Shown piece after piece: positions 9,001-12,000 of a DNA stretch of 64,000 nucleotides. The first letter of the stretch is position 1; each line of letters begins with the position of its first letter. The DNA is from Puniceicoccaceae bacterium (GTDB taxonomy: Bacteria > Verrucomicrobiota > Verrucomicrobiia > Opitutales > Oceanipulchritudinaceae), in assembly GCA_040830765.1 (NCBI GenBank), contig JBFOMH010000005.1, forward strand, positions 1-64,000, in the 5' to 3' direction. The position numbers are program-made.

Positions 9001-12000
9001 TTTCACGAAGTGCCCCTGGAACGGCTTCTTTCCAAGGATTACGCTTCAAGCCAGAGAAAGCAGATCAACCCCATGAAGGCCGCTCTCAACATTCCGCCGG
9101 ATCCGGATGAATTGCGGCAAGGCGATACCGTATACCTAGCCACGGCGGACAGTGAGGGGAACATGGTCTCCTTTATCCAGAGTAATTACCGCGGTGTCGG
9201 CTCAGGGCTCTTTCCACCAGGCCTGGGATTTGGATTCCAGAGTAGGGGATCCGGATTTTCCATGGACCCGGAACACGCCAACGCCTATGCCCCCGCGAAG
9301 CGGCCCTTCCACACCATTATCCCCGCCTTTATCGCCAAGGACGACCAACCGCTCTGCGCCTTTGGCGTCATGGGTGGAGATACCCAGCCCCAGGCCCATG
9401 CCCAGATTGTCATGAACATGGTCGATTTCGGGATGAACCTCCAGGAAGCGGGTGACGCTCCCCGTATCGTCCACTCCGGTGATTCCGATCCTTCCGGCAC
9501 CCGCATGCTCGATGGCGGGCATGTCGCCCTTGAGTCCGGATTTCCTCCGGATGCGGTCAATGAGCTGAAGGCGAGGGGACACAGCCTTATCGAGGGCAAG
9601 GGCTCTTTCGGCGGCTACCAAGCCGTCTGGCGGGATCCGGAAACCGGTGTCTATGCCGGGGCTAGTGAGTCCCGCAAGGATGGGCAGGCGGTTGGGTATT
9701 AAAGAGATAACCACAGTATCCAGGAACATGCAGGATGCCTGTACTCTATTCCAACCAAGGGTCTACAAGGCGCCCTGCCTGTATAATCCCCGGCTCAATC
9801 TACATCGACCCCCATGCGGATGAAATGGACATCCGCTCCATCGGGTTCCACTTGAATGATGCCTTCAACATCTTCGTAAAGGGGATTCTCCCCTTTGTTG
9901 GCATTCTCTTCATAGATTGGATTGCTCGTACTTAACGGTTCGAAGAGCAATGATTCCGGTGCCATCCAAGGAATCGGACCGATATTCGGATCATCCGTCC
10001 GGCGTCGGAAATTCAAGCGAATAACGGGTCCTTCGGGCGTGTTCATCCTTGTCACCCTGACAGCTTCTTGGGGCAGGGTGAACTCATTGGGATTGGTCAC
10101 GAGGGTGAACTCGACGATTGTCGGGATGTTGTCCTTGTCCGGATCTCCGATCGGCGAAGCAAAGGCCGGGTCAAGGAGTTCCTCGCGGGAAAAATTTGCC
10201 GCCATGAAGGCTTCAAACGGCGTCATCTCCACATCGATCATCACCGCAAAGGAGCGTGAAGTCCGGTTAACCCCGTCGGATACCCGGACTGTGATGCTGG
10301 CAACCCCTGAGTATAGGGCCGAAGTGCGCGCAGTCAGGGTTCGACGCAGCCCCGTGCCGGAAATCGCCAGGTCGAGAATCATCTCCGGCCGGTCCGTCTC
10401 AACCGTGATTTCAAGTTGGTCGGGCGGTGTCTCCACCTCGTTGATGACAATCAGGACGTCGATGGGGGAAGCCGTCCCAGTCGAAACGTCGGGAATCAGA
10501 TCCAGCGTCGGAGGCTCATTGCCCCCGGAAGCCTCTCCGGTATTCGTCGGGATATCCCACCAGCTCCGGGCCTGGTAGAGAACGATCCCATCTGTATCTA
10601 ATTCCCAATACGTTGACTCGATATACGTGTAATTCAGCGAGAAATCCTCCTCAGGAGGATCACCCTCCGCATTTCCGTTGGTTGAGTAGGAAGAAATCAT
10701 CACGTTATGCAGCTTATACTTCAGGTAGGTTGTCTCGCCCCGCGTCGTCAAGCGGGTCACGTCCAGCTCCAGCTCGGCAATCACTTCACCCGTGGCCAAA
10801 GCGCTCATCATGCGCGCAGAGGCATTATCCGTCTTCTTGGTCAGGTTTAATTCACTGAAATCCGGCGGGGGAGGGGGAATCCCCTTGCTGACCGAGATCC
10901 CGTTGAAATAACTCTGCACAGGGATCCAGTTCGCGTGGGCGTCATCCGTCGATTCCCCCTCGACACCCTCCCACCTCAAATAGTGGGGGGCTTCCATCGC
11001 CGTTCCGAAGACAGCCAGAAGGCAAAACAGGAAGAGCAACCTGCGTTGGTGGATCATGGGCCTCAATAGATTAGGACTGGATTACGTCAGCCTAGGGGGT
11101 GTTCTGGACCACGTCCCACGTGAAGGGCTCCACGCCGGATGGCCTCCCGTCGGGGAGAGTCGAGTAGTCTACCTTGATACGGGTGAAATTCAGGGTGACG
11201 TTTTCCGTTATCCGGTCCTCGCCGCCACTGCCACCGGTGGATATGGAGGTGATGATCACATCTGTCATCGTGATCTTCATATAGGTCTGGGTCTCGCCCC
11301 CGGTTCCCGTCCGGGTAAGGCTCAATTCAACCGTGCCGAAGACGGTTCCCGAGGCACAGGAAGTCATCAGCGCAGGTGTGGACTTATCGATGTACTTGGT
11401 CATCGATAAATCATCGAAATTGACCCCGCCGGATATCCGCTCACCACCGCCTGCGCCAGACGTGTTCACCGGATTGTACATGCCCCAGTCAATCGACAGG
11501 ACATCGATCCATTTATCATGATTCGAATCCTTCGACTCTCCGTCCACGCCGTCATATTTTGCAAAGACTGCTCCGTTAACCGTGCTCGCCAGTCCCAGGA
11601 TCATCAAGGCCGCGAGCCACCGCCTTGTCCCCCCAAAGCTCGTTATCCAGTTCATTCCTTGAATCTAACCACCGGGGCAGGGGCCTGTCAAAGGTTTAGC
11701 ATTAGGTGAACTGTAGAGGCCTATTAGAAGGCGTATTCTCCAGAGAATCAATCTTTTAGACATAATACATATTGTACCTTCTATATGCACAGAATCCCGC
11801 TGAATTAGCGGGATTCCGTTTCTTGTAAAAACTGAACTGGATGAAATCAGTTTGGATTCAGGTTGATACTGCCGGAACCGGTACTGATTTTGAGATTGGG
11901 GCCGCCATTGGCGGTTGCGCCATCGAGGGAGCGTTTCTTCGCGACAGGATCGACGAGGTCAAAGCCACAGTTGATGCTGCCGCTACCGACACCGGCATTG

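What a model noticed while it worked through the whole genome (the two positions that open the first line are those of the whole stretch)
9795..11655. Tandem Hcp-like proteins with Sec signal peptides in a genome without a type VI secretion system
g00586 (187 aa, C5:11092-11655, -) and g00585 (420 aa, C5:9795-11057, -) are Hcp (T6SS tube protein, PF05638) homologs, E 3e-40 and 3e-27, but each starts with a classical signal peptide of ~25-30 residues that true Hcp lacks; the second carries a 270-aa C-terminal extension, and the genome has no sheath, baseplate, VgrG or PAAR gene. The pair 'short Hcp + long Hcp with variable tail' recurs in T6SS-less Opitutales. These are Hcp-fold proteins exported by Sec, a use of the fold apart from the contractile machine.
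Evidence so far: Pfam table: T6SS_HCP on two genes only, no VipA/VipB/GPW_gp25/Phage_GPD/PAAR. 301 Opitutales genomes: homolog of g00586 in 26, sheath TssC (PF05943) in 5; 22 of the 26 Hcp genomes, this one included, show no TssC; in at least 9 a short and a long copy lie in tandem. N-termini read from 14 loci: the 3 Hcp genes beside TssC start at the Hcp core, 19 of 20 copies from 11 TssC-less genomes have hydrophobic leaders of 22-45 aa mostly ending A-x-A. Among the 150 nearest of 1.84 billion representatives: 85 one- or two-domain proteins have >=15 residues before the core (78 hydrophobic), 24 have none, 39 are chains of 3-7 Hcp domains.
(Added by a program. Inside this text positions count along the whole contig: contig position 1 is position 1 of the stretch shown here. 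"Call 12" and the like, gene names such as g00115 and contig names such as C1 are that model's own, and its searches are not shown. The text may have been shortened before it was handed on; [...] marks where a part breaks off. The agent that wrote the report below was given it as the finding of a first reader that could run no searches.)

Follow-up and report, generated by a model that had tools for sequence, protein, structure and literature searches.

The report
Exported Hcp pair without T6SS
A marine Verrucomicrobiota bacterium with no type VI secretion machine keeps two adjacent genes for that machine's tube protein (Hcp), both behind ordinary export signals and one carrying the tail typical of this phylum's surface proteins, so the Hcp ring seems to have a second, undescribed job outside the cytoplasm.

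Summary
Both ORFs exist (11092-11655 and 9795-11057, minus strand). Both carry a full-length Hcp domain (PF05638, E 2e-39 and 1.6e-26) behind a hydrophobic leader.

The genome is 96.9% complete. It gave no hit for seven contractile-machine families: TssB, TssC, TssF, gp25, VgrG/GPD, PAAR and phage sheath.

Across 401 genomes of the order, Hcp occurs in 47. TssB and TssC occur in the same 8. I read N-termini in 36 of the 40 sheath-less Hcp genomes. 63 of 64 ORFs have a leader. All 15 ORFs from the 7 sheath-bearing genomes start at the Hcp core.

New here:
- The predicted signal-peptidase cut in several close relatives leaves the canonical Hcp N-terminus.
- The order short gene then long gene is fixed in 21 genomes.
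- The long copy's tail is an Ig-like domain, an EF-hand-like calcium loop and a C-terminal beta module that other secreted proteins of this genome share.
- A fold model puts short and long Hcp domains in one six-membered ring (ipSAE 0.71, best control 0.00). This may be memory of solved Hcp rings.
- The mature parts form a hypervariable island between close relatives.
- Contigs of RNA libraries bridge both genes.

Function is unknown. No paper found describes this. The scan has noted the same class before in other genomes.

The parts
11092..11655 (-). Short exported Hcp gene (187 aa)
   Evidence: ORF. PF05638 E 2e-39 over the whole profile. TIGR03344 66.6 bits, over its cut-off. Closest solved structure is P. 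aeruginosa Hcp1 1Y12, E 4.7e-39. The mature part is 47-53% identical to leaderless 160-aa Hcps.
11572..11655 (-). Leader of the short copy (residues 1-28; predicted cut VNG|AVF)
   Evidence: Read from the sequence. It aligns with the leaders of relatives and ends where canonical Hcps begin. The 78%-identical relative P0002 has no internal Met, so its start must lie upstream. The coding DNA is nearly identical to that of G334.
11058..11091 (-). 34-nt spacer between short and long gene
   Evidence: A GAGG lies 5 nt before the ATG at 11057. Contigs of RNA libraries bridge the spacer.
9795..11057 (-). Long exported Hcp gene (420 aa)
   Evidence: ORF. PF05638 E 1.6e-26. AF2 model with pLDDT 77.8. 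Foldseek top hits are all Hcp, best E 1.2e-13.
10989..11057 (-). Leader of the long copy (residues 1 to about 20-23)
   Evidence: Sequence; modelled as a helix over residues 2-18. The cut site is unclear. GTA|MEA fits the small-residue rule. MEA|P would put Pro at +1, which from general knowledge of signal peptidase I is unfavourable.
10527..10988 (-). Hcp domain of the long copy (residues 24-177)
10230..10526 (-). Ig-like domain (residues 178-276)
   Evidence: Weak Big_9 match, E 0.004-0.015, under the cut-off. Beta-sandwich with pLDDT about 90. VIA Z 11.2, rmsd 2.5 over 88 residues to an S-layer SbsC domain; Z 10.1 to the SraP adhesin.
9798..10229 (-). C-terminal module: short helices, calcium loop, six-stranded beta domain ending HFIRM
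   Evidence: Model. Atlas structure matches at TM 0.73-0.80 in Verrucomicrobiota proteins that carry fn3, CBM_4_9, LTD or PKD domains. The profile finds 7 further copies in this genome, 6 of them 33-71 residues from the ORF end.
10110..10145 (-). EF-hand-like 12-residue loop DPDKDNIPTIVE (D305, D307, D309, T313, E316)
   Evidence: These five positions are invariant in 20 of 20 tail homologues. The EF-hand spacing 1-3-5-9-12 is my reading from general knowledge.
11662..11691 (-). Promoter-like site TTGACA-18-TAGATT just before the short gene
   Evidence: It is a consensus match only: 3 sites found against 1.6 expected from shuffles.
11847..12977 (-). Upstream neighbour, DUF4097 toastrack / LiaG-like protein; linked only within this genus
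   Evidence: It is 74% identical to the G334 orthologue, below the flanking genes.

Best explanation
The two genes form one operon-like module. It makes Hcp-fold proteins for the cell envelope or surface, not for a type VI tube.

Inferred sequence of events:
1. Each pre-protein is exported through the inner membrane by its N-terminal signal peptide. Sec is the general reading for the family.
2. Signal peptidase I removes the leader. For the short copy the cut after VNG leaves a core that starts where canonical Hcp starts.
3. The mature Hcp domains fold as the usual beta-barrel and assemble into six-membered rings that can mix short and long subunits.
4. The long subunit carries an Ig-like spacer, a calcium loop and a C-terminal beta module. 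Other secreted proteins of this bacterium use the same C-terminal module, so it takes or tethers the ring to the cell surface.
5. The exposed mature parts differ strongly between close relatives, as surface structures under outside pressure do.

Shown: the domain identities, the leaders, the absence of machine genes in the DNA held, the gene order, the divergence pattern.

Inferred: export, cleavage, ring assembly, surface location.

What the ring binds or does is not known.
For: Hcp identity.

No machine: 0 hits for seven families in the own genome. TssB and TssC occur in the same 8 of 401 genomes of the order, and 40 of 47 Hcp genomes lack both. The sheath-less set includes genomes given as 99-100% complete (G049, G202, G248, G344) and one single-contig genome (G127).

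Leader against sheath: 63 of 64 ORFs in 36 sheath-less genomes have a leader, against 0 of 15 ORFs in 7 sheath-bearing genomes.

Cut site: leaders end in G or A directly before AVDMF/AIDMF in P0004, P0008, P0025 and P0068. Canonical Hcps read MAVDMF.

Module: the order short then long holds in 21 of 40 sheath-less genomes. No other neighbour is conserved across families.

Tail:
- Big_9 and Cadherin_5 score over their cut-offs in the G171 long copy.
- The Ig-like fold matches S-layer and adhesin domains.
- The calcium-loop residues are invariant.
- The C-terminal module recurs at the ends of other ORFs of this genome. All 3 whose N-terminus lay in the DNA fetched start with a signal-peptide-like leader.
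- The module recurs in Verrucomicrobiota proteins with extracellular-type domains.
- This tail type was found in 20 proteins, of which 18 carry PF05638.

Ring: three copies of each Hcp domain scored ipSAE 0.71 (runs 0.68, 0.74, 0.71) against a best control of 0.00. Partner pLDDT was 85-86 and the runs agreed in at least 90% of contacts. The tool's mark was reached by 116 of 157 solved complexes and 2 of 215 mismatched pairs. The tool notes that its counts hold only roughly here, because my own alignments and several copies of each chain were used.

Routes out of the cell exist: 3 secretin genes.

Variability, window against G334:
- Flanking proteins are 85-99% identical; Hcp-long is 53% and Hcp-short 63%.
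- DNA identity is 0.54-0.65 over 10200-11600, against 0.71-0.97 (mostly 0.81-0.92) in the flanks outside the three-gene block, and 0.90 over the leader and promoter.

In 3 of 4 syntenic genome pairs an Hcp gene is the most diverged gene with a recognised function in its neighbourhood.
Against: - There are no localisation, cleavage or assembly data.
- Signal peptides were judged by my own rule, not a trained predictor. That rule also flags 14-24% of neighbouring ORFs.
- The long copy has no clean cut site.
- Both window leaders contain RR and TatC is present, so the export route is not settled.
- The complex score may reflect memory of solved Hcp hexamers, and it cannot tell hetero-rings from homo-rings.
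- The sorting or anchoring role of the C-terminal module is itself unproven. One of the 7 other copies in this genome lies 204 residues from its ORF end.
- In the G311/G346 pair the Hcp genes (72-76%) are not clear outliers against flanks of 63-91%.
- Both dN and dS are raised in the mature parts. That points to exchange of old alleles rather than to demonstrated positive selection.
- RNA-library contigs cannot prove transcription.
Confidence: 0.6

Rival explanations
1. Ordinary T6SS tube genes. On this reading the leaders are artefacts of start-codon choice and the machine lies on unassembled DNA.
For: The genome is 96.9% complete, not closed. Two gene callers started the short copy and its G334 orthologue at the internal Met (P0001 at 170 aa, P0003 at 168 aa). 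The core is 47-53% identical to canonical Hcp.
Against: 40 Hcp genomes lack both TssB and TssC, including near-complete ones and a single-contig one. In sheath-bearing genomes a stop lies 1-6 codons before the start of 9 of the 15 Hcp genes read, so no leader is possible there; sheath-less genomes always have an open, hydrophobic leader. P0002 has no internal Met. Even from Met18 the short copy keeps 11 extra hydrophobic residues.
Confidence: 0.03
2. Soluble periplasmic rings. On this reading the Hcp rings stay in the periplasm and use the lumen to hold small proteins. They could act as a chaperone, or as a sponge for effectors injected by attackers' T6SS.
For: Hcp rings bind small effectors in their lumen (general knowledge of Hcp1/Tse2, recalled, not tested here). 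The short copy has no tail or anchor. Fast allelic divergence would also fit a conflict role.
Against: The long copy carries modules otherwise seen on surface or extracellular proteins. No effector or immunity genes are conserved beside the pair. Nothing tested here bears on the lumen.
Confidence: 0.15
3. Extracellular tube or fibre. On this reading the exported rings stack head to tail into a sheath-less filament on the cell surface, with the long copy as base or decoration. Phage lambda's tail tube protein gpV, which carries an outward Ig-like domain, would be the analogue.
For: The core is close to Hcp1. Tube-forming ability of Hcp1 is recalled general knowledge, not tested here. The Ig-like domain gives Z 8.9 to the C-terminal Ig-like domain of lambda gpV, among many other Ig folds. 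Single chains of six Hcp domains exist with other export signals.
Against: No stacking contact was tested. The complex job addressed only contacts within one ring. T6SS tubes need a baseplate and spike to nucleate (recalled), and none is encoded here. The lambda match is no better than those to generic Ig domains.
Confidence: 0.1
4. The Hcp fold reused as a plain binding or adhesin domain, without ring assembly.
For: The long copies look like modular adhesins: leader, N-terminal domain, Ig-like or cadherin-like spacers, end module. Some long copies place the Hcp domain behind 460-520 further residues.
Against: A separate short copy is kept directly upstream in 21 genomes, which a lone adhesin domain would not need. 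Core positions nearly invariant among exported forms, such as W57, G58, K87, D90 and P94, are shared with canonical Hcps. The ring-type interface was predicted with confidence.
Confidence: 0.12

Closest known systems
Hcp1 / TssD of type VI secretion (P. aeruginosa PA0085, PDB 1Y12; Pfam PF05638)
   Same: Full-length sequence match (E 4.7e-39 for the short copy). Same fold for the long copy (Foldseek E 1e-11 to 1e-13). Same conserved core motifs. Ring-type contacts are predicted.
   Different: There is an N-terminal export leader on both genes. No sheath, baseplate, spike or PAAR genes were found in the genome. The genes sit among housekeeping genes. One copy carries a surface-protein tail.
Hcp-ET proteins (Hcp with C-terminal extension toxins; recalled from the literature, no paper read here)
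   Same: An Hcp domain followed by a C-terminal extension.
   Different: The extension is an Ig-like domain, a calcium loop and an end module, with no toxin family hit. No immunity-type gene follows; the next gene is a convergent gamma-glutamyltranspeptidase. There is no T6SS, and a leader is present.
Phage lambda tail tube protein gpV (tube-fold domain plus C-terminal Ig-like domain, PDB 2L04)
   Same: The same kind of architecture, a tube-fold domain followed by an Ig-like domain. VIA gives Z 8.9, rmsd 3.4 over 88 residues, for the Ig part.
   Different: The match is to a generic Ig fold and ranks 42nd. There are no phage genes nearby. The protein is exported and carries a further end module.
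Uncurated C-terminal end module of Verrucomicrobiota secreted proteins
   Same: A calcium-binding repeat plus a six-stranded beta domain ending in an aromatic-aromatic-Arg-aliphatic motif, flush with the C-terminus, on proteins with leaders.
   Different: Its role in sorting or anchoring is untested, and no dedicated machinery is known. An Hcp domain is an unusual passenger for it.

Membership tests
Hcp / TssD (PF05638, TIGR03344) | Sequence match to the family model above the curated cut-off | tested here: met
   PF05638 scores 135.3 and 93.6 bits against a cut-off of 23.5. TIGR03344 scores 66.6 bits for the short copy (over 58.9) but 46.0 for the long copy (under).
Hcp / TssD (PF05638, TIGR03344) | Hcp beta-barrel fold | tested here: met
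   The top 10 Foldseek hits of the long-copy model are Hcp structures, with TM by target 0.77-0.90. The short copy aligns end to end with 1Y12; its fold was not modelled.
Hcp / TssD (PF05638, TIGR03344) | No signal peptide; the protein starts at the core | tested here: not met
   Leaders of 28 and about 20-23 residues. The same holds for 63 of 64 ORFs in sheath-less relatives, against 0 of 15 in sheath-bearing ones.
Hcp / TssD (PF05638, TIGR03344) | Encoded in a genome with T6SS core genes (TssB, TssC, TssE, TssF, VgrG, PAAR) | tested here: not met
   0 hits for each in a 96.9%-complete genome. No phage-type sheath either.
Hcp / TssD (PF05638, TIGR03344) | Hexameric ring assembly | tested here: inconclusive
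   A prediction only: ipSAE 0.71 against 0.00 for the best control. The contact lists fit a closed six-ring, which is my reading of them. The result may be memory of solved rings.
Hcp / TssD (PF05638, TIGR03344) | Secretion that depends on the T6SS | not testable with these tools
   This needs secretion assays.
Hcp-ET (Hcp with C-terminal toxin) | The C-terminal extension is a toxin domain with a cognate immunity gene downstream | tested here: not met
   Only a weak Big_9 hit in the extension. The fold is Ig-like. The downstream gene is a convergent GGT.
Verrucomicrobiota C-terminal end-module proteins (uncurated) | Calcium loop plus beta domain flush with the C-terminus of a protein that has an N-terminal leader | tested here: met
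   Invariant D305, D307, D309, T313 and E316. Six strands over residues 333-417. 7 other copies in the genome, 6 of them near the ORF end. Atlas structure matches at TM 0.73-0.80.
Tat substrates | Twin-arginine consensus S/T-R-R-x-F-L-K with a weakly hydrophobic core | tested here: inconclusive
   Both window leaders have RR (TRRWLA, QRRLLF) and TatC is present. The cores are strongly hydrophobic, with 9-residue Kyte-Doolittle means of 2.76 and 3.26. By my reading, RR occurs in only about 10 of the 37 leaders.

The most novel reading that the evidence does not exclude
The tail-tube fold has a second life as an extracellular building block that owes nothing to contraction. Bacteria without a T6SS export Hcp by general routes and assemble it into strain-variable rings, or stacks of rings, on the cell surface. 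In this lineage the route is a signal peptide. Single chains of six Hcp domains elsewhere carry a planctomycete extracellular motif or an RTX/type I signal. Here the ring would be built from a plain subunit and a tethering subunit. It would be a new kind of surface structure, with a 4-nm pore, that interacts with phages, grazers or a host.
Probability: 0.35. Interest if true: 0.85.

Novelty: new variant of a known kind. Interest (0 to 1): 0.7.

Why it matters
Secretion of Hcp without a signal peptide is the textbook hallmark of type VI secretion, and genome pipelines label every PF05638 hit as a T6SS part. A large class of Hcp proteins sits behind export signals in genomes with no T6SS. That has two consequences:

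- Hcp alone is not a marker of a T6SS, and many annotations are misleading. The relatives here are named 'type VI secretion system tube protein' or 'effector'.
- The ring fold has been recruited for an unknown envelope or surface role.

This window gives a concrete two-gene system to test. It has a plain subunit and a tethered one, signs of expression in natural samples, and strong allelic diversity that hints at interaction with the outside world.

Tried and rejected
Literature: seven full-text searches found no paper on signal-peptide-bearing or T6SS-independent exported Hcp. I saw listings only, except for passages of PMC3482391 and PMC6691524, which do not address it. This library lacks most subscription journals, so 'not in print' holds only for these searches.

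Conserved partners: none found beyond the pair. GGT and DUF4097 are neighbours only within the genus.

Tail-only structure model: pLDDT 68.6, with the C-terminal module poorly modelled. Its fold search therefore spoke only for residues 1-99 of the tail. I have no independent fold assignment for the end module; 'FN3-like' comes from earlier notes of the scan.

Tree of 159 Hcp domains (FastTree; 72 of 155 inner branches unresolved): the leader state needs at least 16 changes. I do not read this as repeated gain or loss. The tree is weak, and 'no leader' rows among metagenome proteins may be truncated gene calls. Rows left out: multi-domain proteins and matches covering fewer than 110 core residues.

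RNA libraries: contigs X4 record 12 (9554-11563), X6 record 22 (9789-11514) and X2 record 5 (8086-11633) bridge both genes. In X4 and X6 these contigs have higher per-contig depth than most neighbours: 147.9 against 2.2-80.9 for the other bins in X4, and 44.4 against 6.5 for the adjoining contig in X6. The DUF4097 contig in X6 reaches 62.7. The tool states that contigs cannot rank genes or prove transcription, so I treat this as a hint only.

dN/dS: no sign of positive selection overall. The mature short copy gives dN 0.35 and dS 1.55; dS of the long Hcp domain is saturated.

Script slips: one search failed on a script error, and one search printed nothing.
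Full report
**1. The observation**

Both ORFs are present on the minus strand: 11092-11655 (187 aa) and 9795-11057 (420 aa; the frame is also open from a TTG at 11066). A GAGG five bases before the ATG at 11057 favours that start.

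Pfam's T6SS_HCP model matches end to end in both: residues 31-164 at E 2e-39, and residues 26-150 at E 1.6e-26. NCBIfam TIGR03344 passes its cut-off for the short copy (66.6 against 58.9 bits) but not for the long one (46.0).

The nearest solved structure to the short copy is P. aeruginosa Hcp1 (1Y12, E 4.7e-39). The mature part of the short copy is 47-53% identical to ordinary leaderless 160-aa Hcps. A model of the long copy (pLDDT 77.8) finds only Hcp structures at the top of a PDB fold search, the best at E 1.2e-13.

In front of each core lies a leader:
- Short copy: MNWITSFGGTRRWLAALMILGLASTVNG, then AVFAKYDG.
- Long copy: MIHQRRLLFLFCLLAVFGTAMEA, then PHYLRWEG.

**2. No machine**

The genome holding the window has 3.99 Mb in 40 contigs and is 96.93% complete. 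Hcp hits are only these two genes. There was no hit for VipB/TssC, VipA/TssB, Phage_GPD, GPW_gp25, PAAR, Phage_sheath_1 or TssF. The neighbours are housekeeping genes: G6PD, tyrS, a rhodanese, GGT, L31, trpA, an M16 peptidase and KdtA.

In 401 genomes of the order, Hcp is found in 47. TssC is found in 8 and TssB in the same 8. So 40 of the 47 Hcp genomes lack both sheath genes. They include genomes given as 99-100% complete and one single-contig genome. These are sampled genomes, so the statement is 'not found in those searched'.

**3. Leader and sheath exclude each other**

I read the N-termini from the DNA.

| Group | Genomes read | ORFs with a hydrophobic leader |
|---|---|---|
| Sheath-less | 36 of 40 | 63 of 64 |
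| Sheath-bearing | 7 of 7 | 0 of 15 |

The four unreadable sheath-less genomes were G092, G145 (a pseudogene), G261 (cut by a contig end) and G364 (a fragment). The one remaining sheath-less ORF has a hydrophobic stretch but no ordinary start codon in frame. In the sheath-bearing genomes all 15 ORFs begin one to three residues before the core. In 9 of those 15 a stop lies only 1-6 codons upstream.

My stricter rule asks for a basic start, a 9-residue hydrophobic core, no acidic residue, and a small-x-small site. It passes 27 of 29 Hcp ORFs against 49 of 205 neighbouring ORFs when any early Met may be the start. With the first start only it passes 18 of 29 against 28 of 205. It is a crude rule, not a trained predictor.

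**4. The cut recreates the canonical end**

In close leader-bearing relatives the leader ends ...ADA...LLG...LRG or ...LSG directly before AVDMF or AIDMF. Canonical Hcps read MAVDMF. Cleavage there would leave the same N-terminus that a cytoplasmic Hcp has once its first Met is removed; that removal is general knowledge. The window's short copy follows the pattern (VNG|AVF).

The long copy does not give a clean site. GTA|MEA fits the rule. MEA|P would place Pro at +1.

Two gene callers began the short copy at its internal Met18. The 78%-identical relative P0002 has Ile at that position and starts upstream with MGTRR, so the long leader is the conserved reading.

Both window leaders contain RR, and TatC is present. 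RR is not general in the family and the cores are strongly hydrophobic. I therefore read Sec as the family's route and leave Tat open for these two.

**5. A two-gene module**

In 21 of the 40 sheath-less genomes two Hcp genes lie in tandem, always a short one followed by a long one (my reading of the table). G096 adds a 22nd genome.

Across 20 loci no other neighbour is conserved beyond the genus.

The long copies differ in their middle parts:
- one Ig-like domain here;
- several Big_9 or cadherin-like domains in G016, G171, G202 and G344;
- almost none in a second tail type of about 100 residues.

The window's tail type was found in only 20 proteins, and 18 of them carry Hcp.

**6. What the tail is**

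Residues 178-276 form an Ig-like sandwich. The best VIA matches are Z 11.2 to an S-layer SbsC domain, 10.7 to a sialidase linker domain and 10.1 to the SraP adhesin.

Residues 277-420 hold short helices, a 12-residue loop DPDKDNIPTIVE and six strands ending HFIRM. The loop's positions 1, 3, 5, 9 and 12 are invariant in 20 of 20 homologues, with EF-hand-like spacing by my reading.

The ESM Atlas finds this last part by structure (TM 0.73-0.80) in Verrucomicrobiota proteins that carry fn3, CBM_4_9, lamin-tail, PKD or Calx-beta domains.

A profile of it finds seven further copies in this genome, and six lie 33-71 residues from the end of their ORF. All three whose N-terminus lay in the DNA fetched begin with a signal-peptide-like leader. 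One belongs to a frame of 5363 residues.

Earlier notes of this scan describe the same end module in many Verrucomicrobiota and suspect a surface-sorting or anchoring role. That role is unproven. Even so, the long copy is built like this phylum's secreted proteins, with Hcp as the passenger domain.

**7. Ring assembly**

Three copies of the mature short copy were folded with three copies of the long copy's Hcp domain. The result was ipSAE 0.71 (runs 0.68, 0.74, 0.71) against 0.00 for the best of three controls. Partner pLDDT was 85-86, and the runs agreed in at least 90% of contacts. The tool's mark was reached by 116 of 157 solved complexes and 2 of 215 mismatched pairs, and it warns that these counts hold only roughly for this kind of job.

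The contact lists fit a closed ring of six in which both kinds of subunit take equivalent places. That is my inference from the lists. Because Hcp hexamers are solved, the pass may be memory. It shows likeness, not binding.

**8. A hypervariable island**

I compared the window with the congeneric genome G334.

| Region | Protein identity | dN | dS |
|---|---|---|---|
| Flanking genes | 85-99% | 0.004-0.09 | 0.22-1.05 |
| Hcp-long | 53% | 0.38 | 2.0 |
| Hcp-short | 63% | – | – |
| Hcp-short, mature part | – | 0.35 | 1.55 |
| Hcp-short, leader | – | – | 0.105 |
| DUF4097 neighbour | 74% | 0.17 | 0.85 |

- Within Hcp-long, the Hcp domain is 44% identical, the Ig-like domain 44% and the end module 77%.
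- DNA identity in 200-base windows is 0.54-0.65 from 10200 to 11600. In the flanks outside the three-gene block it is 0.71-0.97, mostly 0.81-0.92. It returns to 0.90 over the short copy's leader and the upstream spacer.
- Because dS as well as dN is raised, the simplest reading is exchange of old, diverged alleles, with a break-point near the cut site. It does not look like mere acceleration.
- In the tree, the short copy of another congener (G340) pairs with one from a different family (G179, local support 95).
- In 3 of 4 syntenic genome pairs an Hcp gene is the most diverged gene with a recognised function in its neighbourhood. In the fourth (G311/G346) it is not an outlier.

Such islands are usual for exposed structures under outside pressure. 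That is an analogy, not a test.

**9. Signs of expression**

Libraries recorded as metatranscriptomic, labelled 'mollusc metagenome', hold the stretch. Single contigs bridge both genes: X4 covers 9554-11563, X6 covers 9789-11514 and X2 covers 8086-11633. The X6 contig starts six bases beyond the long gene's stop, where a neighbouring contig of lower depth ends. The tool warns that contigs prove neither transcription nor level.

**10. Wider context**

Of the 150 nearest representatives among 1.84 billion proteins:
- 97 have one Hcp domain: 75 with a hydrophobic leader, 19 with none, 3 other.
- 10 have two domains.
- 43 have three or more domains, most often six.

Among the six-domain chains I scanned, one has the 'Planctomycete extracellular' N-terminal motif (23.1 bits, just under the cut-off of 25.5). 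Two leaderless ones end in RTX repeats or a serralysin-type C-terminal domain. Such C-terminal domains mark type I secretion substrates, which is general knowledge. So the Hcp fold appears behind at least three export signals unrelated to the T6SS.

The scan has noted exported Hcps before in other genomes, including Gemmatimonadales, an alphaproteobacterium, Omnitrophota, Saprospiraceae and Verrucomicrobiota. Those are unchecked notes, not independent support.

**11. Verdict**

By sequence and fold, these are true members of the Hcp family. They fail two features that define Hcp as a T6SS part: the absence of a signal peptide and the company of the machine.

The best reading (0.6) is an exported, probably ring-forming pair, with the long subunit tethering or targeting the ring to the surface. 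The function is unknown. I found no paper that describes this.

Noticed in passing
proteins P0121-P0154, not in the window: About 30 of the 150 nearest representatives are single chains of six Hcp domains (1000-2200 aa), which could form a ring from one polypeptide. P0128 starts with the Planc_extracel motif. P0134 and P0141 have no leader but end in Ig-like domains plus a serralysin C-terminal domain or RTX repeats.
   Followed up: partly
window 11600-11800 against L033 (G334): The promoter region and the leader-coding part of the short gene are nearly identical between two genomes whose mature Hcp parts are only about 60% identical in DNA. Leader dS is 0.105 against 0.65-1.05 in most flanking genes. 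This suggests a recombination break-point at the cut site.
   Followed up: partly
window 11847-12977 (-): The DUF4097 toastrack / LiaG-like neighbour probably starts at an internal Met with its own leader (MKPIKPITVLALVAFAAPGFLSAEG). It is more diverged than the flanking genes (74% to G334, 39-45% to G311 and G346). It is linked to the pair only in this genus.
   Followed up: partly
window 6618-7523 (+): This 301-aa ORF has no Pfam hit and gives dN 0.166 above dS 0.082 against G334. ORFs on the opposite strand (6612-7154 and 7141-7692) overlap it, so the called frame may not be the real gene.
   Followed up: no
L069 (G127), L080 (G163), L073 (G224), L076 (G272): In one family of the order, leader-bearing Hcp genes carry a repetitive insert in the long loop of the Hcp core (motifs like GRRDAASGQAT). 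Some are split over two frames.
   Followed up: no
L045:7364-9961 (G179), L083 (G163), L075 (G261): Some long copies place the Hcp domain behind an extra N-terminal region of 460-520 residues of unknown family, still behind a leader in G179.
   Followed up: no
G000:C5:409619-409876 (L057): A frame of 5363 residues in the same contig ends in the same calcium-loop and beta end module as the long Hcp.
   Followed up: no
window 77-1963 (+): A 628-aa protein with three HYR_4C domains and a CarboxypepD_reg-like domain, probably another surface protein.
   Followed up: no
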